Below are positions 64 through 10,491 of a DNA stretch of 64,000 nt, piece by piece. The position numbers and the translations under genes were made by a program. The stretch spans positions 13,314 through 77,313 of the forward strand of contig CAZFJP010000015.1 of the NCBI GenBank assembly GCA_964518965.1. The letters are read 5' to 3'. This DNA is from an uncultured Candidatus Saccharibacteria bacterium (GTDB lineage: Bacteria; Patescibacteriota; SOKK01). The notes under the pieces are model-generated. The model worked only from the letters and a program-made list of their open reading frames with translations. It was not told the DNA's origin and searched no databases. Every line of letters begins with the position of its first letter. The stretch's first letter is position 1.

Positions 64-187
64 ATAAAGTAAAAAATCAAAAGGCAAAAATTGAAGTATT
101 ATTTAGCTAAAGAAAGTAAAATGAAAAACTCACATTTTTGCACTTTACTTTCAATTTTGCTTCTTGATTTTTGCTTTTTGCCTTTGG
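64..187. repeat. AT-rich palindromic element, copy E1
   Basis: Arms aaagtaaaaaatcaaaaggcaaaaattgaagta and tactttcaattttgcttcttgatttttgctttttgccttt around the core tttagctaaagaaagtaaaatgaaaaactcacatttttgcac. The right arm encodes the last about 12 codons of ruvB. Confidence 0.65.
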
Positions 188-1200
188 AGATGTTCTTTCG
201 CTCTATCCGTTGCTTCTCTCCCCTTCGCTGTTCTATTTAAGAAACCTAATCTAATCAAATATGGTTCGCAAACACACTCAATTGTTTCTTCGTCCTCTGC
301 AATTGCCGCGGCTAAAGTTTTTAATCCTACTGGTCCACCATCAAATTTATCAATTAAAGCAGAAAGTAATTGGCGGTCAACTTCATCTAATCCTTTACTG
401 TCAACATTAAACATTTTTAAGGCCTTTTCGGCAATTTCCAAAGTAATCTTACCATCCCCTTTCACTTCAGCATAGTCGCGCACGCGTTTCAGAAGCCGAT
501 TAGCAATACGCGGCGTTTTTCGAGAACGCTTGGCAATCTCCTTACGTGCTAATGAGTCTAGCTTAATACTGAGAATCTTCGCAGAACGTTTCAAGATATC
601 ATCAATTTCCACATCTGAGTAGAAATCCAAGCGATAAGTTACCCCAAAGCGGTCGCGTAGGGGACCGGACAGAGCGCCGATTTTTGTTGTCGCGCCAATA
701 ATAGTCAGAGGTGGCAGTTCCATGCGGAGATTTTTTGCTCCCGGTCCTTTACCTAACATGATATCCAAAACCGAATCTTCCATTGCGGGATACAAAAGTT
801 CCTCTGCCTGAGTATTTAAGCGATGAATTTCATCAATAAATAAGACATCACCGGGACTTAAACTAGCAAGCAAAGAAGCAAGATCCCCGATTCGTTCAAT
901 CGCCGGACCACTAATTACTTTAAGATTACCCCCAATTTCATTGGCAATGATATTCGCAAGAGTCGTCTTTCCAATACCGGGCGGACCATATAATAAAATA
1001 TGTTCCAATGCTTCCTGACGTCTTTTTGCCGCCTGAATAAAAATTTCCAAACTTTGTTTAATCTGTCTTTGTCCAACATATTCAGCTAATTTTTGCGGTC
1101 GCAAAGTCAAATCAAGAACTTGATCTTCCTTTTGTGGTTTCGCATCTAATAAATTTTCTTCAACTGCGTTCTTTGAACTTCTTCGGGTAATTTTTTTCAT
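151..1200 (-). CDS. ruvB: Holliday junction branch-migration ATPase RuvB
   Basis: 349 aa. AAA+ Walker A LYGPPGIGKTTLA and RuvB-typical length/order, immediately downstream of ruvA with 4-nt overlap. The C-terminal Lys-rich tail is encoded inside repeat element E1. Confidence 0.9.
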   Translation of the reverse strand: MKKITRRSSKNAVEENLLDAKPQKEDQVLDLTLRPQKLAEYVGQRQIKQSLEIFIQAAKRRQEALEHILLYGPPGIGKTTLANIIANEIGGNLKVISGPAIERIGDLASLLASLSPGDVLFIDEIHRLNTQAEELLYPAMEDSVLDIMLGKGPGAKNLRMELPPLTIIGATTKIGALSGPLRDRFGVTYRLDFYSDVEIDDILKRSAKILSIKLDSLARKEIAKRSRKTPRIANRLLKRVRDYAEVKGDGKITLEIAEKALKMFNVDSKGLDEVDRQLLSALIDKFDGGPVGLKTLAAAIAEDEETIECVCEPYLIRLGFLNRTAKGREATDRAKEHLQRQKAKIKKQN

Positions 1201-1757
1201 TCACTTAACAGTTTAAGAACATATTTTAAGCGTTCTTGCACAGTTTTTAAACCACTCGGGATCTTGCTAATTACTTCATTTATCTGAGTTGGTTCATAGC
1301 CGAGACCTTGCAAAGCTAGCTGTACTTCTTCCGTTCCTGGTCTGGCTGCTATTTTCTCCTTCTCCAGTTTAGATTTCAACTCCACCACCAATCGTTCTGC
1401 AGTCTTTCTCCCAATACCCGGAATTGCCTTTAAAAAAGCAATATCCTCGCCAATAATCGCCAGATGTAATTGGCTGACACTTGCTTTTTCCAAAACTTTT
1501 AAGGCTACCTTAGGGCCAATTCCCGGAACAGAAATTAAGGTGTTAAATAACTTTAGTTCTGCAGGATTGGGAAAACCAAATAAGCTCAAATTGTCCTCGC
1601 GGACATGCAGGTGAATATGCAATTTTACTTCTTCGCCTGCCTTATATTGCTCTAGATAACGTTTTAAAGTGAAAACTTCAAAACCCACTCCGCCAATAAG
1701 CAGTGTTAGAGAATTTTGATTAACGTTCTGAATTGAACCTTTAAGATAAGAAATCAC
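1197..1757 (-). CDS. ruvA: Holliday junction DNA helicase subunit RuvA
   Basis: 186 aa. N-terminal MISYLKG motif, helix-hairpin-helix region (IPGIGPKVA, IPGIGRKTAERLV), translationally coupled to ruvB. Confidence 0.85.
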   Translation of the reverse strand: MISYLKGSIQNVNQNSLTLLIGGVGFEVFTLKRYLEQYKAGEEVKLHIHLHVREDNLSLFGFPNPAELKLFNTLISVPGIGPKVALKVLEKASVSQLHLAIIGEDIAFLKAIPGIGRKTAERLVVELKSKLEKEKIAARPGTEEVQLALQGLGYEPTQINEVISKIPSGLKTVQERLKYVLKLLSE

Positions 1758-2494
1758 TACTTCAGCTTAAATATTCTTTTAGCATTTCCAAAGAGAATTT
1801 TTTTCTGATCTTTTTGAGAAAAACTCTGTTTTATTTCACCTAACAAACGATGGGGATTTTTCTTCTGATAAATCATATGTTCATCAGAACCAAAGATTAC
1901 TCTTCCTGCTCCACATTCTTTTACTGCTCTTTTCACCTGATCAATGTTCCTGCCAGAAACTTCCAAATAAACATTTTTAAAACGCTTGCAGAGTACAATT
2001 GCCTCTTCTAAAGGACTCATGTGATAAAGAATAAAAGTAATTCGAGGAAAACTCTTAATGAATGTGGTAAAAATTTTAGCGTTACAGTAGTTTGAGTTGC
2101 CTGTATGAAAAACAACTGGCAAATTGTGAGTTTGAGCAAAATTTAATACCGGATTTAAAATTTCTTTTGTGGGATAATAACGATTCAATGAAGAATGAAG
2201 CTTAATCCCTACACACTCTTCTCGATCAACGTACTTTTCTGCATCTTTTCTCCACTCTGGATCATAAGGGTTAATCCAGATTAATTTTTTCAATCTGCTA
2301 CGAAAACGATTAACAAAATCAAAAGTTTCCCGATTGCCCCATTGTTGACCGATTGTTGCGCTTCCTAAAGAAGAAACAATTCCAATTTTTGTTCCTCGTA
2401 AAAAATGATTACGTTTTTTCTTCCTCCTTCCGTAAATTCCGGCATTGAATTTTCCTAAGTGAAGATGGGAATCAATATGATACACGGGTAACAA
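1757..2494 (-). CDS. amidohydrolase-2-like TIM-barrel metal-dependent hydrolase
   Basis: 245 aa. N-terminal HxH (DSHLHLG), internal HTG and C-terminal GSDEHM motifs typical of the PF04909-type amidohydrolase fold. Last gene of the ATP-grasp block, start overlaps ruvA stop. Confidence 0.5.
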   Translation of the reverse strand: MLPVYHIDSHLHLGKFNAGIYGRRKKKRNHFLRGTKIGIVSSLGSATIGQQWGNRETFDFVNRFRSRLKKLIWINPYDPEWRKDAEKYVDREECVGIKLHSSLNRYYPTKEILNPVLNFAQTHNLPVVFHTGNSNYCNAKIFTTFIKSFPRITFILYHMSPLEEAIVLCKRFKNVYLEVSGRNIDQVKRAVKECGAGRVIFGSDEHMIYQKKNPHRLLGEIKQSFSQKDQKKILFGNAKRIFKLK

Positions 2495-3457
2495 TTATTT
2501 TTTTAGAGATACTGCCTCTTTAAACATTTTAATCATCGCCAAATAAACTCTTTTTTGCAAAGCGCGATCTTCGGGATAAAAATAAATTCCCGGTTTAGTA
2601 TTAAGTTCAACAAGATAGGGCTTTCCTTTGGAATCAAAGAAAAAATCAATTCCCAGGATTCGTGGATAAAAAATCTTTAATCTCTTATCAATTCTTCTGA
2701 TTAATTTTTTCACCGAAGCGGGAACTTGATTATTTTTGATATTAATCATTACCCCACCCTGATGAATATTGCTCAAGAAAGAGCCTTTTTTAGCGAGACG
2801 GAAATAAGCATAAATAATTCTACCATTAATCACAAAAACACGAAGATCATGCACTCCTTTTACGAGATTTTTATATCCTTTACTGGTGTCGATAAATTCT
2901 TGAACAAGTACTTGTTTTCTGATTTTTAGTTGATTTGCTTGTTTGCGACTCAAAATCTTTACCCCAAATCCCCCAGACCCAATCGGAAATTTAAAGACAA
3001 CCTTATGACCGCGGATTAACTTAAGCGCTCTCTTTAATTCATGTTGATTTGATACCACTGAAGTTTTAGCAAACAAAGAAGGAAAAATAAAATAAGAGTA
3101 AAGTTTATTATCAAGAAGCAAAGTTAAATCAAGATTATTAATAACACTAAAATATTTCTCCAGAACTCGAGTTTTTAATATTTCTGATAAATCTGAAGGT
3201 CCTTTATCAAAAACAAGGTCTGGTTTAAATTTTTTAACCTTTTTCCAACTACCGTTCCGAAACACCCAGCCATTTTTAAATACTCCCCGCTGTTTATCGA
3301 ATTGAAACAAATTGGATTTGTAAAAAATAACGCCGTTTTTCTCTCCTAGCCAAGCAAGGTAATCATAACATTCTTTATAATTGGGCTTAAAAAACGGCTG
3401 CTTCAACTTCTCATCACGATAACTATTAAGAACCATTACTTTTATTTTCTGATGCAT
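2495..3457 (-). CDS. ATP-grasp family ligase (RimK/GshB-like)
   Basis: 320 aa. ATP-grasp signature spacing: KFPIGSGGFGV, LVQEFID, RVFVINGRIIYAY, ELNTKPG. Confidence 0.65.
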   Translation of the reverse strand: MHQKIKVMVLNSYRDEKLKQPFFKPNYKECYDYLAWLGEKNGVIFYKSNLFQFDKQRGVFKNGWVFRNGSWKKVKKFKPDLVFDKGPSDLSEILKTRVLEKYFSVINNLDLTLLLDNKLYSYFIFPSLFAKTSVVSNQHELKRALKLIRGHKVVFKFPIGSGGFGVKILSRKQANQLKIRKQVLVQEFIDTSKGYKNLVKGVHDLRVFVINGRIIYAYFRLAKKGSFLSNIHQGGVMINIKNNQVPASVKKLIRRIDKRLKIFYPRILGIDFFFDSKGKPYLVELNTKPGIYFYPEDRALQKRVYLAMIKMFKEAVSLKK

Positions 3458-3468
3458 ATAATTTTTAA

Positions 3469-4473
3469 CTAATCTAAATTAGGCTTACGATTGATTTCAC
3501 TTTCTTTACCACTAAAAAACAAAAAATCAATCAGGGCATCAGCGGGATTGTGAGCTTTACCAAAACTTGGCTGAGTGTGCATTAAAATATCGGGGTTAGG
3601 ATTAACTTCAGTTACTTTGCCGGGGGTTTTGGTAATATCTGGAGAAATAAAATCGATTCCCAATACCGGAGAAGCAAACTTACGGGCAATTGTAATTGCA
3701 ATTGATTTTGCTTCTCTACAAATCATTCCGGTCTTGTTAACTGTAAATCCTCCAAAATGAACATTAGAAGTAGTGCTTAATTTCACTTTTTGACCCTTTT
3801 TAGGAACGCTTTTTCGATTTAACCCTTGAATATTTAAAGCAAGATCAATCGATTTACTTGGTATCTCGCGAAATTTTTTCAACGATCCAGTAAAAACTCT
3901 ACCTTTCTTGATTAGAGTCGTAATCATACTTTTGCCATCACCAATTGTATAGGCCGGATTCCGTTGCAGGCAGAAAACCTTTTTGTATCCTACAACTAAA
4001 ACTCGATAATCATTACCATCTAAAAACTCCTGAATTAAAAAATGTTTACTGCCACCAAGATACTTTTTAACATTTTGAATTGCTTCTTTTAACAACTTTT
4101 GATTAGTAATCCCAGCAGTAACACCCAAACCCCACTTCAACCCTACCGGCTTAACAACAACATTTCGATATTTCTTCAGAAAAGATAAGCATTCCTTAAA
4201 AGTTTTTACTTCCTTAGTTGCGGGAACGGGTACCTTCCAGCGCTTAAATAAAGCATAAGAAAGATCTTTTCGGTTGGCCGCAATAAAAGATCCTGATTCC
4301 ATATTACCAAAAAGGGATTGGAAAAAAGTATATGATTTCTTACCTTTACTTAATTGGTATAAAAGCATGCGTGTCAAAAAAGATTTGAATCTAATTCCTC
4401 TTTTAAGCGCTGCATCAACAATTAATTTAGAAAGAGTATAGGGATTTTTTACATTTATCTTTGGTTTTTCCAT
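3469..4473 (-). CDS. ATP-grasp ligase, cyanophycin-synthetase-N-terminal-domain-like
   Basis: 334 aa. C-terminal half GIDFISPDI...EVNPNPDILMHTQPSFGKAHNPADALIDFLF resembles the CphA N-terminal ATP-grasp domain (GIDxI..DI...EVNxxPG..MH..P..G..R.VA.AI.D.LF). Assignment from memory of the family. Confidence 0.6.
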   Translation of the reverse strand: MEKPKINVKNPYTLSKLIVDAALKRGIRFKSFLTRMLLYQLSKGKKSYTFFQSLFGNMESGSFIAANRKDLSYALFKRWKVPVPATKEVKTFKECLSFLKKYRNVVVKPVGLKWGLGVTAGITNQKLLKEAIQNVKKYLGGSKHFLIQEFLDGNDYRVLVVGYKKVFCLQRNPAYTIGDGKSMITTLIKKGRVFTGSLKKFREIPSKSIDLALNIQGLNRKSVPKKGQKVKLSTTSNVHFGGFTVNKTGMICREAKSIAITIARKFASPVLGIDFISPDITKTPGKVTEVNPNPDILMHTQPSFGKAHNPADALIDFLFFSGKESEINRKPNLD

Positions 4474-4492
4474 TATATTGGAAGGTTAGCAA

Positions 4493-5389
4493 TTACTTCT
4501 TTTTACTCTTTTGGATAAGATAATCAACGATCATCCCGGCAATATTAACACCAGTAACCAATTGACACCGGGGAAAATAACAAGGAAAATTCACTTCCAT
4601 TACATAGGGATTATTTTTTTGGTCAAAAATAATATCCACTCCTCCAAATTCAATTTGTTTTAATGCTACCGCCTTAATCGCAATTTTCTCTACCTCTGAA
4701 GAAAATTTTTTTGGTTTGACAATTGGTTTTTCGCCAACATTAGTACGAAATTCTCCCGGGGGAGCAAGATATTCAATGCTATCAACAACCTTGTTACCAA
4801 GAACGATAAGACGAGCATGCGAGACTACTTCAGACTTTATAAATTCTCTCAAGATTAAATCGCGATCGCTACTTTTAAATTTTTTAATCGCGGAAAAAAG
4901 CGCAGGAAAAGAATCAGCTAAGGCAACACCCCTCCCATGACTACTCATTGTGTCTTTAACAATAACCGGAAACCCGCCTAGATATTTAACACTTTTTTTA
5001 AGATCTTCTCGGTCCAACGAGACATTAAAAACTGTTTTGGGAACTGGTACGCCATATTTCTGGTAAAGAAAGAATGAACTGGAAATTTCAAAACTATATA
5101 AACCGCGATAATAGTTATGATAAAAAGTTATTGCTCCCTGAGTAATAAAAAACTTTTCAACCAATCTCGCAATCGGAGAGATATTCGAGCGATAAACTAG
5201 ATCGCTTTTATTGATTTTAATTCGCTCTTCAAAAAAGCGAAAATTAAGCGCATCAATCTCACAAAAATTTATTCCTCTTTGACCGCAAGCTTTTCTAAGT
5301 AATTTGCTGGGAACAGTATTACGTTTAAAAACACCATCAGGATTAAAAGCATCAATGTGATAAAAATTAATCTCCTTCATTTTAACCAA
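4493..5389 (-). CDS. RimK-like ATP-grasp alpha-L-glutamate-ligase-type enzyme
   Basis: 298 aa. GFPVIVKD, LILREFI, HARLIVLGNKVV, GGVDIIFDQKNNPYVMEVN motifs in ATP-grasp order. Confidence 0.7.
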   Translation of the reverse strand: MVKMKEINFYHIDAFNPDGVFKRNTVPSKLLRKACGQRGINFCEIDALNFRFFEERIKINKSDLVYRSNISPIARLVEKFFITQGAITFYHNYYRGLYSFEISSSFFLYQKYGVPVPKTVFNVSLDREDLKKSVKYLGGFPVIVKDTMSSHGRGVALADSFPALFSAIKKFKSSDRDLILREFIKSEVVSHARLIVLGNKVVDSIEYLAPPGEFRTNVGEKPIVKPKKFSSEVEKIAIKAVALKQIEFGGVDIIFDQKNNPYVMEVNFPCYFPRCQLVTGVNIAGMIVDYLIQKSKKK

Positions 5390-6772
5390 TTATTTCCCTG
5401 GCTCCACTAAAAACTTTTTCAAGTCCTTCCTCCCTACAATCATCTGATAGTCTAATTCCTCCCGACTAATAATGGAAACTTTTGAAAAAATCTTTTTTTT
5501 AGAAATTTCAAACATTAGTTTAATCCTCGGACGAATGGTCACACCATGACTGGAATAAACAACAACAATATCAGCAAGATCAGAATGTTTGCCGTGGTAT
5601 TTGCGATTTAATTGCTGTTCAACTTTTCTCGCCCCAGCACGACTCTCAATTTCCGGCAGCTTAATCTTCTGAAAAAACTTAATCAAATCGCAAAATCCCA
5701 GTTTTCTTGCCAACTCTTCATCAACCGAGCTTGAAAATGCCCCCGTATCTATCTTTGCTTCCACTTCAATTCTCCGCCCGTTTTTTCCAATGAGAATAAC
5801 TTTTTCCACTGTACCAATTACCTGCTTTCCTGAAATTTCCTCAATTTCATCTTCAATCTCACCACCAAAAAGATTCTTGGCAATGCGAATACCATGAGCA
5901 ACATCACGAACTTGCAAGCGCTCTACTTTTTCCAAGCGATAGCGCAGTGGGGCTAGGTTCGCGACTTGAATTGCCAAGCCGGGACGAGCATTAAGTTCCA
6001 AAATCATCGGACCTCTTTTCTGATCAACAACAATATCCGCGCCAAGAAACCCAATCCCGGAAACTTGCTGCGCTTCAATGGCAATCTTCAAAATATCATC
6101 CCAAAAAGGAATGTGAAATCCGGCAACTGGCATTTTAGTGTCAGGAGTTTCAGTAATCACCTTACCCCACATCACTGCCTCTGTCGTCACACCGGTAGCA
6201 ATGTCAATCCCAGCACCTACAGCACCAAGATGCAAATTTGCTTTTCCTTGCGAAGTTTTAGTTGGAAGCCGAGTTTCTGCCATTACTGGAACTGAATTAT
6301 AGACAATCACACGAATATCTGGTATCCCTTGGAAAATATATGGCCAGAAATCTTTATGAGGAGTAAGTTTTTCTTCAAAGAAAGCAATATCGGGCACGCC
6401 GCTCATGGAATAATGACCGTCTAAAATATCATTTAAATGAACAACTAGTTCCCGGTGAGTCATCTTTGTTCCGTTCGCCCGAAGTAAATTGCCATTGCGA
6501 AAACGTTTCTTGAAAACAATAATCCCTTCACCTCCCAGTCCTCGGTTCGGTTTCAAAACAAAACTTTTTGGTAATTTGCCCCACTTAAAATCGTCAATAT
6601 CTTTACGATTTCTAATAATCCCGTAAATTTTTGGCACGGGAAGACCAGAAGCACGCAATGCTTCCTTGGTTGCTAATTTATCATCAGCCAAATGAATTGC
6701 TTTTCTTGGATTGCTCGGACGAATGTAAAGCAAATTGCGAGCATTCATACCGAGAAGATCCTTTAATCTCAT
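5390..6772 (-). CDS. fusion protein: RimK-related ATP-grasp ligase plus C-terminal clan-AA (retropepsin-like, DTGA) protease domain
   Basis: 460 aa. The N-terminus MNARNLLYIRPSN...DDKLATKEAL...GLPVP resembles the alpha-L-glutamate-ligase-related (rimK_rel) family. The ATP-grasp core is GADIVVDQKRGPMILELNARPG. The C-terminal domain contains EVEAKIDTGAFSS, i.e. an Asp-Thr-Gly-Ala active-site motif as in RimB/Zn_protease-type retropepsin-like domains that are normally separate genes next to rimK. Confidence 0.65.
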   Translation of the reverse strand: MRLKDLLGMNARNLLYIRPSNPRKAIHLADDKLATKEALRASGLPVPKIYGIIRNRKDIDDFKWGKLPKSFVLKPNRGLGGEGIIVFKKRFRNGNLLRANGTKMTHRELVVHLNDILDGHYSMSGVPDIAFFEEKLTPHKDFWPYIFQGIPDIRVIVYNSVPVMAETRLPTKTSQGKANLHLGAVGAGIDIATGVTTEAVMWGKVITETPDTKMPVAGFHIPFWDDILKIAIEAQQVSGIGFLGADIVVDQKRGPMILELNARPGLAIQVANLAPLRYRLEKVERLQVRDVAHGIRIAKNLFGGEIEDEIEEISGKQVIGTVEKVILIGKNGRRIEVEAKIDTGAFSSSVDEELARKLGFCDLIKFFQKIKLPEIESRAGARKVEQQLNRKYHGKHSDLADIVVVYSSHGVTIRPRIKLMFEISKKKIFSKVSIISREELDYQMIVGRKDLKKFLVEPGK

Positions 6773-6797
6773 AAGTTTATGATTATCTCAAGATCAA

Positions 6798-6933
6798 ATT
6801 AAAAAATCAAAAGGTAAAAAGCAAAATTGAATGCAAAAACATGGGATCTCTGCGTTTTAATTTTTTTAGCTGAATAAATACTTTAATTTTACTTTTTTAC
6901 ATTTAATTTTGCATTTTGATTTTTGCTTTTTGA
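6798..6933. repeat. AT-rich palindromic intergenic element, copy E2
   Basis: Left arm aaaaaatcaaaaggtaaaaagcaaaattgaatgcaaaaa and right arm ttttgcattttgatttttgctttttgaattt are imperfect reverse complements around a core containing tttagctgaataaatactttaattttac. It fills the gap between the 7TM gene stop and the ATP-grasp-protease start. Related to E1, E3 and E4. Confidence 0.7.
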
Positions 6934-6952
6934 ATTTAGACCATGCAATAGA

Positions 6953-8515
6953 CTATTTTTTGGTCTTCCTGTTAGCTCTTATCACCTCTCGGAATCTCCA
7001 CAATTCCCACAAACGCAAACCAGAATATAAACCCACTAAAACATTAATAGGAATTAAAGCAAAAATCCATTCGGGAGTATTAAGAATAAACGTGCGGAGA
7101 TATTCCCAACTCGCAGTGTAATAAGCAATGATAGAAATAATTAAAGTTTCAACGGTTAAAATAACTGCTGTGCGCGGACCTTTTTCAATCTGAGCACTAA
7201 CAAATTGTTCCACAAGAATAATCATTACAAGAATGGGAAAAACAGAAACAGAAATAACCTCCGTCACTTTGAAATAAACCCCTACTGCCCAAAGTCCTAA
7301 GATTGCTAAACTAACAACAGTGATCAAAATTGCCATGCGTGGAAGATAAAGAAGACGTAGACGGCGGAGCAAAAATCTACCAATAGTTCCAATAAGTAGA
7401 ATGAGTGCAAAAATAATGATGCCATAACGCAGACCAATTGCTAAAAAGGAAAGCGCGATTAATGAAGGAATAAAAATACCAAATGTCTTAAAACCAATCA
7501 ACTGACGCGCCAACGCGATTAAAGTCGCAACAATCGGAAGCATTAAAATCAAAGCAAGAACATTAGCAGGAACACCATTCCTCTTCATGGCATTTACCGT
7601 ATAGGAAAGAAAATTATAATAGCGGAAGGACATCACTTTCTGCGCTTCCGCGGCACCAATGACGCGATAATCCAACTGTTTCGCCTGTAAAATTGAGGTT
7701 AATGCGCGCGTATCTTCGATTGTCACTAAAGTATCAAGAGCATCTTCGCGAGTAAGAACAAAATCATCCGGTTTTAGAATATCCGCAGCAGATTTTGCTA
7801 ATTGTTCAATACTACCAAAACTTTTATTGCTAGTCGCGACAAAAGTTTTGTGCGAGAGATCTAAATCGGTCTGCTGACCAAAACGAGAAAGAACGTTAAA
7901 ACCAACACTGCCTTCGGTCCAAGTGATAACTAAATCGGCTTGCTCGACTAAACGACTTTTCTCTAACAAAGACTTAGCGAGAGATTCCTCAGTAGTAAAG
8001 TCCGGACTTACTCCCCGAGGCCGAATGATCTCCAAAAGAATCCCTTTCTTACTCGCTTGTCTTTTCAAAATATTAATTTCACTCTCATCACTCTTAGAAG
8101 TAACCAAAATAATCAGATTGGAGTAAACGTCCACCGTTAAACTATCACTAGTTTCCAGATCTTTGGTACGCAGGGTAAGAATAACTTTGTAATGACCGGG
8201 TGTACTGTAAGGATGAACAACTTCTTTACCCTTTCCTTGAGTTCCATCACCAAAATCCCAAAGATACTCTACAGTGCTACCACGAGGGATAATAGAACGA
8301 CTAGCATCAAAAATTGCCTTTTTGCCAACGCCAATACTAAAGTCCTCACCGGCTACTGCCTCCAAGCGATTGTTAGCGGAAAAAATGGGGGTAATAATCG
8401 CAAAAGTACAAATCAATCCGAGAAAAATTGAGAGTATTTTTTTCATTATCATAATCATAATTAGATAATAAAGGTAGAAGGCTGAAGGCGGAAGTATGAA
8501 GATTAAAAACTTCAA
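6953..8515 (-). CDS. membrane protein: N-terminal signal sequence, PKD domain, central domain, C-terminal 7-TM module
   Basis: 520 aa. The PKD hallmark is YLWDFGDGTQGKG..HPYSTPGHYKVIL. Seven predicted TM helices lie in the last about 210 aa. The likely true start is the MKKILSIFLGL signal peptide at 8446 or 8452. The architecture is reminiscent of the 7TM partners of ATP-grasp peptide-modification systems (from memory, not searched). Confidence 0.55.
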   Translation of the reverse strand: MKFLIFILPPSAFYLYYLIMIMIMKKILSIFLGLICTFAIITPIFSANNRLEAVAGEDFSIGVGKKAIFDASRSIIPRGSTVEYLWDFGDGTQGKGKEVVHPYSTPGHYKVILTLRTKDLETSDSLTVDVYSNLIILVTSKSDESEINILKRQASKKGILLEIIRPRGVSPDFTTEESLAKSLLEKSRLVEQADLVITWTEGSVGFNVLSRFGQQTDLDLSHKTFVATSNKSFGSIEQLAKSAADILKPDDFVLTREDALDTLVTIEDTRALTSILQAKQLDYRVIGAAEAQKVMSFRYYNFLSYTVNAMKRNGVPANVLALILMLPIVATLIALARQLIGFKTFGIFIPSLIALSFLAIGLRYGIIIFALILLIGTIGRFLLRRLRLLYLPRMAILITVVSLAILGLWAVGVYFKVTEVISVSVFPILVMIILVEQFVSAQIEKGPRTAVILTVETLIISIIAYYTASWEYLRTFILNTPEWIFALIPINVLVGLYSGLRLWELWRFREVIRANRKTKK

Positions 8516-8527
8516 ACTTCAGCCTTC
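8477..8527. repeat. GC-richer hairpin repeat (family 2, copy A)
   Basis: Perfect 11-bp stem gaaggctgaag / cttcagccttc with an internal gcggaag...cttc, followed by a T-run on the plus strand. It overlaps the last codons of ruvC. A related copy is at 21316-21370. Confidence 0.6.
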
Positions 8528-8998
8528 ATTTTTTGTATTAAACATATGGCATATCGCTATTGCTAAAGCATCCGCAGCATCATCCGGTTTGGGAATCTCT
8601 TTCAATTTCAAAAGTAATTGCACCATCCTTTGCACTTGTTCCTTGCCCGCACGACCGTAGGTAGTAATCGTTTGCTTTACTTGCAAAGGAGTATAATCAA
8701 CAACTGGAATACGGCATTCCGCGCCCAAAAGCAGAATTACTCCCCGTGCCTGGCCAATTTTTAGGGCAGTTTTACTATTTTTAGCGAAGAAAATTTCTTC
8801 CACTGCCAAACAATCTGGTTGATACTTATCAATGACCTTTTTTACCTCTTTATAAAGCTGCTGTAACCGCAACGGCATTGGTTGTGATTTTTTCGTTTTG
8901 ATACAACCAAAACGCACCACCCTTAAATTATCTCTATCACCTGATATTACACCGTACCCCAAAGCCGCTGTTCCGGGATCAATTCCTAAAATAATCAT
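8519..8998 (-). CDS. ruvC: crossover junction endodeoxyribonuclease RuvC
   Basis: 159 aa. MIILGIDPGTAALGYGV N-terminus with catalytic Asp, RNase-H-like fold order, C-terminal DAADALAIA. Confidence 0.85.
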   Translation of the reverse strand: MIILGIDPGTAALGYGVISGDRDNLRVVRFGCIKTKKSQPMPLRLQQLYKEVKKVIDKYQPDCLAVEEIFFAKNSKTALKIGQARGVILLLGAECRIPVVDYTPLQVKQTITTYGRAGKEQVQRMVQLLLKLKEIPKPDDAADALAIAICHMFNTKNEG

Positions 8999-9001
8999 TG
9001 A

Positions 9002-9077
9002 ATGTTAGATGTTAGATGTGAGATGTTAGATGTAAGATGTTTCCAATTCTAACATCTAACATCTTACTCCTAACATC
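9002..9077. repeat. heptad-iteron palindrome (family 3, copy C)
   Basis: Five tandem TAGATGT-like heptads (tagatgt tagatgt gagatgt tagatgt aagatgt), spacer ttccaattc, then inverted heptads aacatctaacatcttac..taacatc. It fills the entire 77-bp gap between the TPR-gene stop and the ruvC start. Confidence 0.65.
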
Positions 9078-10491
9078 ATTCTATTTTCCGCCAATTACTA
9101 AACTCTCCACTTAAATCTAAATCAATCGCCCGTGCATAACTTTCTCTCGCTTCCTTCATATGCCCCTGGTCTCTTAGAATTAGTGCTTTAACATAATAAG
9201 CGAAAGCAAAATCATAATCCGAGCGCAAAACTTGATTTACTTTATTAGTTGCTTCTTTCAGTCGGTTTTCTTTCCAAAGTTTTAATCCCTCCAAAGTCAA
9301 TTTCAACGACTTTTCCATGCTACTAATCAATTCATCAACTAGCTCAGTTTTACTAAGCTCCACTAAATTGCAATAGGCAAGCTGAATGTAATTGTTGAAA
9401 TATTTATCATCTTGTTCTAATCCTTTAGCAAAATAAACCGCCGCTTTATCAAAATCTTTCTTGCGTTCGGAAGCAATTCCCAAACGGAAATAGAGATCCG
9501 CACTTTGATATTTTAACTTTTCTGACTTGATAAATGACTGCTCTGACTGATCTAATTTTCCTTCGGCAAGTTGAATTCTTCCTAGAAGATAGTAAGTCAA
9601 ACCGTAAACCCGATCGCTTTTGAGAGCATTTTGAATCGCACTCTCCGCATCATTATATCGGAAACGCTGAAAGTAAGCATAGGCTTTTCCAAGCCAAGCA
9701 TCGCGATAGTCTGGCAAAAACTCTAGCGCCTTACTAAAAGCAACTTGTGCTACTTCTGGTTCTCTTAAATCATTGGCTAGTTTACCTACTAAGGCATAGT
9801 AATAAACTTGATTTTTCTGTTTTTCTAAATTAGTCAATTCACTCAAAATTCTTTCATTTTTAGTCCGCAACGAATGCTCACCTTTGTTTTTAAGCTGCTT
9901 AAGAGTAGTTTTTGCTTCACTGGGATTCTTTCGTGCCAACTGGATAAGTCCCTTGAGATAAAGAGTTTCGGAATTATCGGAAGTAAGTAGAGTAATCGCC
10001 GGCTCAATATTGCCAATACCAAGATAACTTCTAGCAAGAATTAAACTACCTTCTTCGCTTTCACTCAAAAGTAGCTGTGACTCTTGATCACGCTTGACTT
10101 CTTCATCTAAAATAGTTTGGTAATCTCCCTGCCTCAACTCATAACCAGAGATACCTAGAATTGCATCTTTATCCTTGGGAGCAATATCAATTGCTCTCCT
10201 GTAATTTTCTGACGCTTTACTGAATTGTCCTTTTAACTCATAGATCTCACCTAGTCTCAAATAAACTTTCGCCGTTTGATCTACACTCCCGCCAATTGCT
10301 AGTGCTTTCTCTAAATTCTCAATTGCTTTAGTATATTGCTTTTGCTTAAACAACTGATCACCACGGTTGTAATACTTAGCCTGAGTTTCTATAAAGAAAG
10401 AGTGACCGAAAGTTAAATAAGAAATACTTATCGCTAAAATAATTGCCCCGATAATAATTGAAATGATAAGAATTTTTTTATTGCGTGTCAT
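9076..10491 (-). CDS. TPR-repeat protein with N-terminal membrane anchor
   Basis: 471 aa. N-terminal hydrophobic helix ILIISIIIGAIILAISI, then multiple 34-aa TPR-like units (AxxxYxxALxxxP patterns). Confidence 0.7.
   Translation of the reverse strand: MTRNKKILIISIIIGAIILAISISYLTFGHSFFIETQAKYYNRGDQLFKQKQYTKAIENLEKALAIGGSVDQTAKVYLRLGEIYELKGQFSKASENYRRAIDIAPKDKDAILGISGYELRQGDYQTILDEEVKRDQESQLLLSESEEGSLILARSYLGIGNIEPAITLLTSDNSETLYLKGLIQLARKNPSEAKTTLKQLKNKGEHSLRTKNERILSELTNLEKQKNQVYYYALVGKLANDLREPEVAQVAFSKALEFLPDYRDAWLGKAYAYFQRFRYNDAESAIQNALKSDRVYGLTYYLLGRIQLAEGKLDQSEQSFIKSEKLKYQSADLYFRLGIASERKKDFDKAAVYFAKGLEQDDKYFNNYIQLAYCNLVELSKTELVDELISSMEKSLKLTLEGLKLWKENRLKEATNKVNQVLRSDYDFAFAYYVKALILRDQGHMKEARESYARAIDLDLSGEFSNWRKIE

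What the first reader, a model, noticed from the sequence alone, without database searches (positions are those of the whole stretch)
1757..8515. Six-gene ATP-grasp / 7TM / protease / amidohydrolase block wedged between ruvC and ruvAB
ruvC (8519-8998) and ruvA-ruvB (151-1757) are separated by a same-strand, tightly packed block. Its genes are:
- a PKD plus 7-TM membrane protein
- an ATP-grasp ligase with an in-frame C-terminal DTGA retropepsin-like domain
- a RimK-like ATP-grasp
- a cyanophycin-synthetase-N-like ATP-grasp
- a fourth ATP-grasp
- an amidohydrolase-2-like hydrolase

Four consecutive amino-acid-ligase-type enzymes plus a protease, a trimming hydrolase and a dedicated multi-pass membrane protein is the signature of a peptide or protein-tail modification system. 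Alternatively it could be a non-ribosomal amino-acid polymer system. It recalls the ATP-grasp/7TM/peptide systems predicted computationally by Iyer and Aravind. It differs in gene number, the PKD domain and the ligase-protease fusion. No obvious small precursor-peptide gene is visible, so the substrate is unknown.

The gene starts and stops overlap or abut (1757, 2494/2495, 3457/3469, 4473/4493, 5389/5390), suggesting one transcript embedded in the DNA-repair ruv operon.
Basis: partly seen in the sequence, partly recalled or inferred. Interest (0 to 1): 0.85.

Follow-up and report, generated by a model that had tools for sequence, protein, structure and literature searches.

The report
CPR-type Rlo peptide-ligase/protease membrane cluster
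The six genes between ruvC and ruvA are a real, conserved cluster in ultra-small Patescibacteria: a version of the recently described Pseudomonas "Rlo" system (membrane 7TM protein, glutamate-ligase-like enzyme, polyglutamate-cutting protease). It carries an extra, fast-changing set of amino-acid ligases plus a hydrolase, and most likely builds and trims a small acidic peptide polymer at the membrane.

Summary
Six same-strand genes lie between ruvC and ruvAB:
- a PKD-7TM membrane protein
- an ATP-grasp ligase fused to a DTGA retropepsin
- three further ATP-grasp ligases
- an Amidohydro_2 hydrolase

The core is homologous to Pseudomonas RloB, RloC and RloA:
- RloC: 42% identity, E 4e-82.
- RloB 7TM region: 30%, E 6e-26.
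- For the C-terminal domain of the ligase, the best solved-structure matches in the PDB are the RloA crystal structures.

They are not. The fusion is found across many Patescibacteria groups: more than 7,800 homologues, and 55 fused genes among the fetched loci. ruvC sits directly upstream in 24 of 52 loci.

What is special here is the accessory cassette. DNA homology with the closest relative stops exactly at the fusion gene's stop codon and resumes at ruvA. Core proteins are 80-90% identical, but accessory ligases are only 45-54% identical or absent. Relatives carry 2-4 accessory ligases in this slot.

The hydrolase's only close relatives sit beside cyanophycin-synthetase-like ligases, once inside the same kind of cluster.

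No precursor peptide gene exists. The most likely function is non-ribosomal synthesis and trimming of an acidic peptide polymer. This is a new variant of a known kind, of moderate-to-high interest.

The parts
8519..8998 (-). ruvC. This is the conserved upstream neighbour of the cluster, not shown to be functionally part of it.
   Evidence: NCBIfam RuvC 230.9 bits against a cut-off of 163. ruvC lies directly upstream on the same strand in 24 of 52 Patescibacteria loci that carry the fusion gene, and divergently adjacent in 2 more.
6953..8446 (-). g1: membrane protein (497 aa from the ATG at 8446). The domain order is signal peptide or anchor, PKD domain, alpha/beta flavodoxin-like ectodomain, RloB-type 7TM domain, then a basic cytoplasmic tail. 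An alternative TTG start lies at 8515.
6773..6952 (-). AT-rich 180-nt intergenic gap with an imperfect long inverted repeat. It contains no precursor-peptide gene.
   Evidence: There is no minus-strand ORF of 20 aa or more. Inverted repeat arms of 44 nt are 82% complementary. The RNA fold z-score is -1.86, which is not significant. The same junction is only 9 nt in L084 and 23 nt in L085.
5864..6772 (-). g2 N-terminal domain (aa 1-303): RloC-type ATP-grasp ligase.
   Evidence: PF14397 226.9 bits. TIGR02291 289 bits, below its cut-off of 314. 42% identity over 312 aa (E 4e-82) to the RloC of a bona fide rloABC operon. The best structural match is RimK 5zct, E 2.8e-10. K74, D246, E259 and N261 are invariant in 16 homologues.
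5813..5863 (-). g2 linker (aa 304-320): glutamate-rich GEIEDEIEEISGKQVIG (G304-G320).
   Evidence: Translation checked. Predicted disordered, pLDDT below 50. The FGGE.E.E..E..SG pattern is present in 31 of 55 fused proteins, all in the clade linked to ruvC.
5390..5812 (-). g2 C-terminal domain (aa 321-460): retropepsin-like aspartic peptidase (RloA/RimB family). DTGA lies at 5738-5749.
   Evidence: DTGA verified. The profile of 16 homologues hits the RloA crystal structures 9G58 (E 2.1e-5) and 9G59 (E 6.2e-4) as the best PDB matches. BLASTP to P. frederiksbergensis RloA gives E 2e-5. (K/R)xD(T/S)GA is present in 55 of 55 fused proteins. K340, D342, R414 and R437 align with the RloA residues reported to bind polyglutamate.
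4493..5389 (-). g3: accessory RimK-family ATP-grasp ligase (298 aa; the gene caller uses the ATG at 5380). It has no orthologue in the three closest relatives.
   Evidence: rimK_fam E 9e-32, with all equivalog scores below cut-off. The best match in the relatives is only 25% identical.
3469..4473 (-). g4: accessory ATP-grasp ligase resembling the G domain of cyanophycin synthetase. It lacks the N and M domains.
   Evidence: TIGR02068 E 1.2e-49 over profile positions 162-479 of 862. PDB 7wac E 8.8e-28. 54% identical to L084_a337, whereas the core genes are 82% identical.
2495..3457 (-). g5: accessory ATP-grasp ligase (RimK, ATPgrasp_ST and YheCD-like).
   Evidence: Pfam and NCBIfam E 1e-17 to 2e-19. 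45% identical to L084_d319.
1757..2494 (-). g6: small Amidohydro_2/TatD-like metal-dependent hydrolase, a recurrent partner of cyanophycin-synthetase-type ligases.
   Evidence: PF04909 68.1 bits against a cut-off of 26.4. Read by eye from the translation, it has HxH at the N-terminus plus later His and Asp residues. An exhaustive search finds only three relatives at E <= 1e-30 (42, 38 and 33% identity). All three lie between a cyanophycin-synthetase-like or CphA-G-like ligase and a MurF-like ligase. One of them sits in a RuvC / PKD-7TM / fusion cluster.
151..1757 (-). ruvA (1197-1757) and ruvB (151-1200): the conserved downstream flank of the variable cassette in this clade.
   Evidence: NCBIfam equivalogs score above cut-off. 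DNA homology with L084 resumes at 1739.

Best explanation
**What it is.** The block is the Patescibacteria (CPR) form of the RloB-RloC-RloA type system, extended by a variable cassette of extra amino-acid ligases and a hydrolase.

**Shown by homology**
- g1 carries the RloB-type 7TM domain. A PKD domain plus a flavodoxin-like ectodomain replaces the inactive transglutaminase of RloB.
- g2 is an RloC-type ATP-grasp ligase. It is joined through a disordered Glu-rich linker to an RloA/RimB-type retropepsin with an intact KxDTGA site.
- g3, g4 and g5 are ATP-grasp ligases. Their nearest characterised relatives all extend a carboxylate end: RimK, LysX, the cyanophycin synthetase G domain, and GshB.
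- g6 belongs to a small amidohydrolase family that travels with cyanophycin-synthetase-like ligases.

**Inferred mechanism**
1. In the cytoplasm, g2 polymerises glutamate, or a similar acidic residue, onto a C-terminus as RimK does.
2. Its fused protease cuts long acidic chains. This sets chain length and multiplies extendable ends, as RimB does when it stimulates poly-alpha-glutamate synthesis by RimK.
3. g3-g5 add further residues, and g6 trims or recycles.
4. The 7TM protein holds the ligase at the membrane through its cytoplasmic tail. It either exports or displays the product, or tunes synthesis in response to an outside cue.

No ribosomal precursor peptide is involved.

**Confidence by step**
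- Membership of this system type: about 0.85-0.9.
- An acidic peptide polymer as the product: about 0.55.
- Export or display through the 7TM protein: about 0.3.
For: **Homology to a bona fide rloABC operon** (L079, all three genes above NCBIfam cut-offs)
- RloC: E 4e-82, 42% identity.
- RloB 7TM region: E 6e-26.
- RloA: E 2e-5.
- The best PDB matches of the C-terminal domain profile are the RloA crystal structures 9G58 and 9G59.

**The 7TM gene and the ligase gene belong together**
- The 7TM gene sits immediately upstream of the ligase in 55 of 59 fusion loci and 18 of 24 non-fusion loci.
- One Chromatiaceae genome fuses the transglutaminase, 7TM and ATP-grasp parts into a single 820-aa ORF.

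**Protease and ligase competence**
- The fused protease keeps (K/R)xD(T/S)GA in 55 of 55 proteins.
- The residues aligning with RloA K46, D48, R114 and R137 are invariant. The R-to-R spacing is 23 in both proteins. The paper reports that R114A and R137A abolish function.
- All four ligases keep the Lys/Gly-rich loop and the D...ExN metal motifs (by eye; for g2).

**Published function of relatives**
- RimB stimulates RimK ATPase activity fourfold. It is needed for detectable poly-alpha-Glu, and it cleaves polyE (PMC11957791).
- RloA cleaves runs of 8 or more Glu. Deleting rloB or rloC suppresses the defects of the triple rloA mutant (PMC12239564).

**The accessory genes belong to the system**
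- At least one extra ATP-grasp gene lies directly downstream in 26 of 50 fusion loci, against 0 of 24 proteobacterial loci.
- In Gracilibacteria-type loci the same ligase-protease protein is further fused to a MATCAP/QEGLA carboxypeptidase-like domain.
- The three nearest relatives of g6 sit next to cyanophycin-synthetase-like ligases, once in the same cluster type.

**No precursor, no rival family**
- There is no small ORF in any gap.
- No graspetide-ligase family appeared among the NCBIfam hits listed at E <= 0.01. No defence family matched in PADLOC at E <= 0.001.
Against: - No product, substrate or activity has been measured for any Patescibacteria member. Even in Pseudomonas the biochemical roles of RloB and RloC are unknown.
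- TIGR02291 scores 289 bits, below its cut-off of 314, and the RloA-type models score far below theirs.
- Unlike RloA, the protease here has no signal peptide. It is therefore cytoplasmic, so the Pseudomonas model (periplasmic trimming) cannot be transferred directly.
- Amino-acid specificity cannot be read from sequence. g4-type enzymes add Asp or Gly in their characterised relatives.
- The accessory cassette could be an independent module that merely shares the operon.
- Co-transcription is inferred from spacing only.
Confidence: 0.6

Rival explanations
1. Protein-tail modification. The ligases add a reversible acidic tail to the C-terminus of a specific protein, as RimK/RimB do for ribosomal protein S6. 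The target might even be g1 or cleaved g2 itself. The protease and hydrolase would then erase the tail.
For: - The RimK/RimB precedent, and the finding that RloA cleaves polyglutamylated RpsF in vitro.
- Ligase-eraser fusions, including the MATCAP-like carboxypeptidase in L058. MATCAP is the eraser of a tubulin C-terminal tail modification (MATCAP function is from my own knowledge).
- The conserved Glu-rich linker immediately follows the point where stand-alone RloC ends.
Against: - No target is identifiable, and no S6 gene lies in the window.
- Full-length cyanophycin-synthetase-like polymerases occupy the same cassette slot in L091. In addition, RimK makes free poly-Glu when RimB is present. 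Both observations point to free polymers.
- Pyroglutamyl peptidase genes lie in or beside the cassette in L084 and L085. This enzyme acts on peptide N-termini, which matters for free Glu/Gln-initiated peptides rather than for C-terminal tails (inference).
Confidence: 0.2
2. Cell-wall peptide chemistry. The accessory ligases modify peptidoglycan precursors or another envelope glycopolymer, for example by adding side-chain or cross-bridge amino acids. The 7TM protein would act on lipid-linked intermediates.
For: - The Rlo mutant phenotypes involve cell shape, sensitivity to cell-wall antibiotics (ampicillin) and hypo-osmotic lysis.
- MurF-like ligases lie in the cassette of L091, L093 and L095.
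- A class A PBP lies directly downstream in Moranbacteria L002, and FemAB and Mur-ligase genes lie a few kb upstream in L001 and L085.
- Pfam describes PF14397 as 'sugar-transfer associated'.
Against: - No ligase in the window reaches any Ddl or Mur model cut-off.
- The window itself has no Mur-type ligase in the cassette.
- A polyE-type retropepsin has no obvious role on muropeptides.
- The PBP and FemAB neighbours are not conserved across loci.
Confidence: 0.12
3. RiPP or graspetide cluster. The ATP-grasp enzymes would macrocyclise a ribosomal precursor, which the protease then matures and the 7TM protein exports.
For: - Graspetide clusters have been reported in Patescibacteria (PMC8939145).
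- A protease plus a membrane protein is a typical RiPP accessory set.
Against: - No ORF of 20 aa or more lies in any intergenic gap. The only sizeable gap is absent in the closest relative.
- No graspetide or microviridin ligase model appears among the NCBIfam hits listed at E <= 0.01.
- The best structural and sequence relatives are RimK, RloC and the cyanophycin synthetase G domain.
Confidence: 0.04
4. Chance neighbours. The genes are unrelated and sit together only because streamlined genomes pack genes tightly. The accessory ligases and hydrolase would have separate metabolic roles, for example synthesis of a compatible solute such as N-acetylglutaminylglutamine amide.
For: - g4 also matches N-acetylglutaminylglutamine synthetase (E 1.3e-36) and the C-terminal half of GshAB.
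- Cassette content differs between close relatives.
- ruvC itself is a conserved neighbour with no evident functional link.
Against: - The 7TM-ligase pairing holds across phyla and includes a Rosetta-stone fusion.
- Extra ATP-grasp genes follow the fusion gene in 26 of 50 loci from several Patescibacteria groups.
- The nearest relative of g6 sits in the same cluster type in another lineage.
Confidence: 0.04

Closest known systems
RloA-RloB-RloC system of Pseudomonas aeruginosa (Lormand et al. 2025, mBio; PMC12239564). Its gene neighbourhood was predicted by Iyer, Abhiman, Burroughs and Aravind 2009 (cited from memory and from reference lists; the paper was not readable here).
   Same: - It has the same three protein families: an RloB-type 7TM domain, an RloC-type ATP-grasp (42% identity), and an RloA-type DTGA retropepsin with the same polyGlu-contacting Lys and Arg positions.
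- The 7TM gene lies directly upstream of the ligase gene.
   Different: - The protease is fused to the C-terminus of the cytoplasmic ligase, rather than being a separate secreted protein.
- The ectodomain is a PKD domain plus a flavodoxin-like domain here (and is absent in Moranbacteria), rather than an inactive transglutaminase.
- One to several extra ligase genes follow the fusion in about half of the Patescibacteria loci. Some also carry a hydrolase: an amidohydrolase here and in L091, a pyroglutamyl peptidase in L084.
- The cluster is linked to ruvC.
- The host is Patescibacteria. The paper reports that 96% of RloB hits are proteobacterial.
RimK-RimB and the RimBK hybrid (Little et al. 2025, JBC; PMC11957791)
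   Same: - It is a cytoplasmic pairing of an alpha-L-glutamate-ligase-type ATP-grasp with a retropepsin that both cleaves polyGlu and stimulates its synthesis.
- A natural ligase-protease fusion exists. RimBK from Desulfotalea is proteolytically active.
   Different: - In RimBK the protease is N-terminal, whereas here it is C-terminal, so the two fusions look independent.
- The ligase here belongs to the RloC family (PF14397/TIGR02291), not to RimK. E. coli RimK model NF007764 scores 20 bits against a cut-off of 331.
- The Rim system has no 7TM partner and no extra ligases.
Cyanophycin synthetase CphA1 (structures 7wac, 7lg5)
   Same: - g4 aligns with the G (ATP-grasp) domain that extends the polymer backbone at its C-terminus.
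- Full-length cyanophycin-synthetase-like genes occupy the equivalent cassette position in L091, and lie next to g6 relatives in L095.
- From my own knowledge (Sharon et al. 2022), CphA1 also contains a hydrolytic site that makes primers. This is analogous to the role inferred here for the fused protease.
   Different: - g4 lacks the N domain and the Mur-ligase-like M domain, and scores 169 bits against a cut-off of 850.
- The window has no Mur-type ligase, so a cyanophycin-like branched Asp-Arg polymer is not expected here.
Tubulin tyrosine ligase (TTL/TTLL) with MATCAP and related erasers (my own knowledge)
   Same: - The logic is the same: an ATP-grasp ligase adds residues to a C-terminus, paired with dedicated peptidases that remove them.
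- A MATCAP-family domain is fused to the same ligase-protease protein in Gracilibacteria-type loci.
   Different: - That system is eukaryotic and acts on tubulin.
- The window itself has no MATCAP domain.

Membership tests
RloABC-type system | ATP-grasp ligase of the RloC family (Pfam PF14397; NCBIfam TIGR02291) | tested here: met
   PF14397 scores 226.9 bits against a cut-off of 31.4. Identity to the RloC of a bona fide rloABC operon is 42%, E 4e-82. Note that the narrower TIGR02291 'hypothetical equivalog' score is 289 bits, below its cut-off of 314. This indicates a sister group rather than strict orthology.
RloABC-type system | Membrane partner with the 7TM_transglut domain encoded directly upstream of the ligase | tested here: met
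   PF14402 scores 125.2 bits against a cut-off of 25. The RloB profile C-terminal half matches at E 1.2e-25, and BLASTP gives E 6e-26. The adjacency holds in 55 of 59 fusion loci.
RloABC-type system | Inactive transglutaminase ectodomain on the 7TM protein (PF14400) | tested here: not met
RloABC-type system | Retropepsin-like peptidase with a DTG(A) active site and basic residues that contact polyGlu | tested here: met
   DTGA lies at aa 342-345. The family profile's best PDB hits are the RloA structures 9G58 and 9G59. K340, R414 and R437 are invariant in the 16-sequence alignment and align with RloA K46, R114 and R137. Curated RloA and RimB model cut-offs are not reached: 26 bits against 210.
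RloABC-type system | Protease is a separate, secreted protein with a signal peptide | tested here: not met
   The protease domain is the C-terminal third of g2, after a cytoplasmic ATP-grasp domain. No hydrophobic segment is present.
RloABC-type system | Role in hypo-osmotic tolerance, cell shape and antibiotic tolerance | not testable with these tools
   This needs genetics in a Patescibacteria co-culture or a heterologous host.
RimK / RimBK | RimK equivalog (ribosomal protein S6--L-glutamate ligase) | tested here: not met
   NF007764 scores 20 bits for g2, 83.7 for g3, 24.8 for g4 and 35.4 for g5, against a cut-off of 331.
RimK / RimBK | Hybrid with the protease domain N-terminal to the ligase | tested here: not met
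   The domain order here is ligase then protease. RimBK order is protease then ligase.
Cyanophycin synthetase | Three-domain N-G-M enzyme reaching the TIGR02068 cut-off | tested here: not met
   g4 covers only profile positions 162-479 and scores 169 bits against a cut-off of 850. Full-length homologues occur in the related cassettes of L091 and L095 at about 760 bits, also below the cut-off.
Graspetide / RiPP cluster | Adjacent precursor-peptide gene, and a graspetide-type ligase | tested here: not met
   No small ORF lies in any gap. No graspetide ligase model appears among the NCBIfam hits listed at E <= 0.01.
Amidohydro_2 (PF04909) for g6 | Pfam gathering score, and metal-binding His/Asp pattern | tested here: met
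   68.1 bits against a cut-off of 26.4. HxH near the N-terminus and later His and Asp residues are visible in the translation. No NCBIfam family matches.
Housekeeping ATP-grasp enzymes (Ddl, GshB, PurK/PurT, AccC, LysX) | Score at or above the curated equivalog cut-off | tested here: not met
   All such hits for g2-g5 are far below their cut-offs.
Known anti-phage defence systems (PADLOC) | Any PADLOC model hit | tested here: not met
   There were zero hits for g1-g6.

The most novel reading that the evidence does not exclude
The cassette between the fusion gene and ruvA could be a recombination-swapped 'specificity module'. Different sets of stand-alone ATP-grasp, cyanophycin-synthetase-like and Mur-type ligases would assemble strain-specific hetero-oligopeptides or branched polymers without a ribosome or an NRPS.

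In this reading:
- The fused retropepsin acts as a primer generator and length ruler.
- The 7TM protein exports or displays the product on the surface of these ultra-small episymbionts.
- The product serves as an envelope, host-attachment or phage-evasion determinant.

A sub-variant: the protease autoprocesses the conserved Glu-rich linker, as retroviral proteases free themselves from polyproteins. This would leave an acidic C-terminus on the ligase that primes its own polymerisation.
Probability: 0.2. Interest if true: 0.8.

Novelty: new variant of a known kind. Interest (0 to 1): 0.6.

Why it matters
**For the Rlo field.** The biochemical function of RloB and RloC is still unknown, although they affect antibiotic tolerance, biofilm formation and cell shape in Pseudomonas. 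The Patescibacteria form gives independent clues:
- The protease can work while fused to the ligase in the cytoplasm.
- The transglutaminase ectodomain is dispensable or replaceable.
- The system repeatedly recruits polymer-building ligases and chain-trimming peptidases.

These clues point towards synthesis and turnover of an acidic peptide polymer rather than protein processing.

**For Patescibacteria biology.** These organisms have genomes of about 1 Mb and little biosynthetic capacity. Keeping 7 kb of ligase genes next to ruvC across many lineages suggests an important envelope or host-interaction function. A cassette of ligases that varies between close relatives would be a new route to chemical diversity.

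**For the published distribution.** The result also corrects the view that this system is essentially proteobacterial.

Tried and rejected
- **Precursor peptide.** I scanned all gaps for ORFs of 12-90 aa. The only candidate is a 19-aa low-complexity TTG ORF in a gap that is missing in the closest relative. Rejected.
- **Structured RNA or attenuator in the g1-g2 gap.** The fold z-score is -1.86, not significant. There are no Rfam hits in the window.
- **Promoters and terminators.** Counts were no higher than in shuffled sequence.
- **g6 as an orphan gene.** The word-indexed search suggested this, and the first remote hit lay in an unrelated, archaeal-looking context. The exhaustive HMMER search overturned the idea.
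- **Two-domain relatives of g6 as ligase fusions.** They are tandem amidohydrolases.
- **Retropepsin fold by Foldseek of the whole g2 model.** The list was swamped by ATP-grasp hits. A profile-to-PDB sequence search resolved the question instead.
- **Defence-system models.** There were no hits.
- **Other system parts elsewhere in the window.** I searched for a second copy, an S6 gene and a MATCAP gene and found none.
- **Iyer et al. 2009.** The paper could not be read.
- **Literature on the Patescibacteria variant.** Searches of the held library found nothing.
- **Hypervariability of the cassette as a general rule.** This holds for the window's clade and for several Moran-/Paceibacteria pairs. 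It does not hold for Shapirobacteria-type pairs, where accessory and core genes diverge alike. Some pairs are limited by contig ends.

Full report
**1. What is in the sequence**

| Gene | Coordinates | Main matches |
|---|---|---|
| g1 | 6953-8515 | PKD_4 E 3.9e-16; 7TM_transglut E 4.1e-36 |
| g2 | 5390-6772 | ATPgrasp_ST E 3.7e-67; TIGR02291 'alpha-L-glutamate ligase-like' E 3.4e-86; weak C-terminal PF05618/RloA3 match |
| g3 | 4493-5389 | RimK family E 9e-32 |
| g4 | 3469-4473 | Cyanophycin synthetase E 1.2e-49, G-domain part only |
| g5 | 2495-3457 | ATPgrasp_ST, RimK and YheCD, about E 1e-17 |
| g6 | 1757-2494 | Amidohydro_2 E 1.4e-18 |

- The DTGA motif lies at 5738-5749.
- No ligase reaches the curated cut-off of any housekeeping enzyme.
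- g1 probably starts at the ATG at 8446, with a signal-peptide-like N-terminus.
- The g1-g2 junction is a 180-nt AT-rich gap. All other junctions are 0-19 nt.
- The cassette g3-g6 has 32-35% G+C, against roughly 38-42% for g1, g2 and the ruv genes.

**2. The core is an Rlo-type system**

NCBIfam pointed to RloB and RloA, named in a 2025 study of Pseudomonas aeruginosa (PMC12239564). That study reports the following:
- RloA proteases are secreted retropepsins that cleave runs of 8 or more glutamates.
- RloB is an inactive-transglutaminase-7TM inner-membrane protein.
- RloC is a cytoplasmic ATP-grasp protein.
- Deleting rloB or rloC suppresses the osmotic, antibiotic, biofilm and shape defects of the triple protease mutant.

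I fetched a Pseudomonas frederiksbergensis locus whose three genes all exceed the curated RloA, RloB and TIGR02291 cut-offs, and compared it with the window:
- g2 residues 1-303 are 42% identical to its RloC (E 4e-82).
- g2 residues 316-459 align with its RloA (E 2e-5).
- g1 residues 278-492 are 30% identical to its RloB 7TM half (E 6e-26).

A profile of 16 g2 homologues finds the RloA crystal structures 9G58 and 9G59 as its best matches in the whole PDB.

K340, D342, R414 and R437 are invariant in the alignment. They align with the RloA residues K46, D48, R114 and R137, with the same 23-residue Arg-Arg spacing. The paper reports these as polyGlu-coordinating, and R114A and R137A abolish function.

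The ATP-grasp half is structurally closest to RimK, the poly-alpha-glutamate synthetase (Foldseek E 2.8e-10).

**3. How this version differs from Rlo**

- **The protease is fused to the ligase.** The AlphaFold2 model of g2 (pLDDT 80) shows an ATP-grasp domain, a disordered linker at 304-320, and a beta-rich C-terminal domain. There is no signal peptide or membrane segment, so the protease is cytoplasmic. This resembles RimB rather than RloA. RimB binds RimK, stimulates its ATPase activity fourfold, is needed for detectable poly-alpha-Glu, and degrades polyE. A RimB-RimK hybrid exists but has the protease at the N-terminus (PMC11957791).
- **The linker is Glu-rich.** The sequence (F)GGEIEDEIEEISGK starts exactly where stand-alone RloC ends. 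It is conserved in 31 of 55 fused proteins.

**4. Distribution**

- Full-length matches of 37-56% identity come from loci labelled Moran-, Pacei-, Kerfeld-, Dojka-, Woese-, Levy-, Shapiro-, Gracili-, Peregrini-, Portnoy- and Saccharibacteria.
- Proteobacterial and other hits match the ligase domain only.

I marked homologues of every window gene in 83 fetched loci:

| Feature | Count |
|---|---|
| 7TM gene directly upstream of the ligase, fusion loci | 55 of 59 |
| 7TM gene directly upstream of the ligase, non-fusion loci | 18 of 24 |
| ruvC directly upstream, same strand | 24 of 52 fusion loci with enough flank |
| ruvC divergently adjacent | 2 more |
| ruvC adjacent, non-fusion loci | 0 of 24 |
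| One to three extra ATP-grasp genes directly downstream, fusion loci | 26 of 50 |
| Extra ATP-grasp genes downstream, non-fusion loci | 0 of 24 |

- In Moranbacteria the order is ruvB-ruvC-7TM-fusion. The arrangement 'between ruvC and ruvAB' is specific to the window's own clade.
- The PKD-7TM architecture occurs in about 70 protein clusters, all from Patescibacteria.
- One Chromatiaceae genome encodes transglutaminase, 7TM and ATP-grasp in one 820-aa ORF. This supports direct contact between the 7TM protein's cytoplasmic end and the ligase.
- The Rlo paper states that 96% of RloB hits are proteobacterial. I found no paper in the held library that describes the Patescibacteria form.

**5. The accessory cassette is the variable part**

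Three close relatives carry the same flanks but different contents:

| Locus | g2 identity to window | Content between the fusion gene and ruvA |
|---|---|---|
| Window | - | Three ATP-grasp genes plus an amidohydrolase |
| L001 | 74% | Two ATP-grasp genes |
| L084 | 82% | Four ATP-grasp genes plus a pyroglutamyl peptidase |
| L085 | 73% | Four ATP-grasp genes (pyroglutamyl peptidase lies after ruvB) |

Window against L084:
- Core proteins: g1 82%, g2 82%, ruvC 80%, ruvA 90%, ruvB 89% identical.
- g4's best match is 54% identical and g5's is 45%.
- g3 and g6 have no counterpart.
- At the DNA level, collinear homology of 73-80% stops at the g2 stop codon (5390) and resumes inside ruvA (1739). 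Only short patches of 66-69% identity lie between.

Similar turnover is seen in several Moran-/Paceibacteria pairs. It is not seen in Shapirobacteria-type pairs, where accessory and core genes diverge alike.

In Gracilibacteria- and Peregrinibacteria-type loci there is no separate cassette. Instead, the ligase-protease protein carries a third domain of the MATCAP/QEGLA family (E 1.8e-59 and 3e-59).

**6. The hydrolase belongs with the ligases**

- A word-indexed search suggested g6 was nearly an orphan.
- An exhaustive HMMER search of 1.84 billion representatives found 1,953 relatives. Only three have E <= 1e-30, at 42, 38 and 33% identity.
- All three lie between a cyanophycin-synthetase-like gene and a MurF-like ligase. 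That gene is full length (about 870-900 aa, about 760 bits on TIGR02068) in L091 and L095, and a stand-alone G-domain protein in L093.
- The closest relative sits in YebC-RuvC-PKD7TM-fusion-CphA-like-amidohydrolase-MurF-like, which is the same cluster type.
- g6 is therefore a recurrent partner of polymer-type ligases. What it hydrolyses is unknown.

**7. What it most likely does**

*Shown:* family memberships, domain order, conserved catalytic and substrate-contact residues, synteny, cassette turnover, and absence of a precursor ORF.

*Inferred:*
- A cytoplasmic RloC-type ligase builds an acidic peptide chain.
- Its fused retropepsin cuts long chains. This limits length and creates new extendable ends, which is the effect reported for RimB on RimK. 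It is analogous to the primer-making site of cyanophycin synthetase, which I recall from Sharon et al. 2022.
- The accessory ligases add other residues, since their characterised relatives all extend a carboxylate terminus.
- The hydrolase trims or recycles. In other lineages a pyroglutamyl peptidase or a MATCAP-like carboxypeptidase may take this role.
- The 7TM protein tethers the ligase to the membrane and either exports or displays the product or regulates synthesis.

*Rivals:*
- Protein C-terminal tail modification.
- Cell-wall peptide chemistry, supported by the Rlo phenotypes and by the Mur-type ligases and PBP neighbours in some loci.
- A RiPP cluster, for which there is no precursor.
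- Chance gene packing.

The reason for the ruvC linkage is unexplained. It may be inherited synteny in streamlined genomes.

**8. Verdict**

- The system is not categorically new. Its core is a known kind: predicted in 2009, partly characterised in 2025, and covered by Pfam and NCBIfam models.
- The Patescibacteria form has not, to my knowledge, been described. It combines a C-terminal protease fusion, a replaced or missing ectodomain, ruvC linkage, and a swappable cassette of stand-alone polymer-type ligases with a dedicated hydrolase.
- I rate it a new variant of a known kind, with interest 0.6.

Noticed in passing
L058:9983-12346 (Gracilibacteria-labelled); versions of about 800 aa also occur in L032, L036, L040, L051 and L063: A triple fusion of RloC-type ATP-grasp, retropepsin and a MATCAP/QEGLA (PF08014, TIGR02421) carboxypeptidase-like domain. 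One polypeptide thus carries a ligase and two different chain-trimming peptidases.
   Followed up: partly
L067:2716-5178 (Chromatiaceae-labelled): A single 820-aa ORF encodes inactive transglutaminase, 7TM and ATPgrasp_ST, which is a natural RloB-RloC fusion. The 7TM match covers only profile positions 2-185 of 248, so the last helices may be missing or diverged. An assembly artefact was not excluded.
   Followed up: partly
L091:5327-10027, L093:449-3433, L095:3-4631: A conserved three-gene module in Patescibacteria-like contigs: a cyanophycin-synthetase-like (or G-domain-only) ligase, a small Amidohydro_2 hydrolase, and a MurF-like ligase. In L091 and L095 a glycogen synthase gene follows. 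Cyanophycin-synthetase-like genes in these reduced genomes deserve their own look.
   Followed up: partly
window 9002-9077: An inverted repeat built from tandem GATGTTA-like heptamers, with 30-nt arms that are 87% complementary and 10 nt apart. It fills the gap between the TPR gene and ruvC. It could be a terminator, a processing hairpin or a protein-binding site.
   Followed up: no
window 6796-6937: An AT-rich imperfect inverted repeat (44-nt arms, 82% complementary) in the 180-nt g1-g2 gap. The gap is absent in the closest relative, and the fold energy is not significantly better than shuffles (z = -1.86).
   Followed up: yes
L084:9203-9715 and L085:17293-17814: A pyroglutamyl peptidase (Peptidase_C15) gene sits at the end of the ligase cassette in L084 and just after ruvB in L085. 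It is not seen in the window or in L001. It may hint at Glu/Gln-initiated free peptides, or it may be an unrelated neighbour.
   Followed up: partly
window 9076-10491: A 471-aa multi-TPR protein lies directly upstream of ruvC. It is conserved in that position in the three closest relatives (L001, L084, L085) but not in Moranbacteria, where YebC or ruvB precedes ruvC.
   Followed up: partly
window 1757-5389 versus 5390-8998: The accessory cassette is 32-35% G+C, against roughly 38-42% for the g1, g2 and ruv genes. This fits faster turnover or exchange of the cassette.
   Followed up: partly
L007, L010, L011, L027, L028, L035, L038, L039 and others (titles): Several loci carrying the Patescibacteria-type fusion and ruvC linkage are labelled 'uncultured Bdellovibrionales', 'Gammaproteobacteria' or 'Pseudomonadales' in third-party assemblies. 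These labels look inconsistent with the gene content and may be mis-assigned taxonomy.
   Followed up: no
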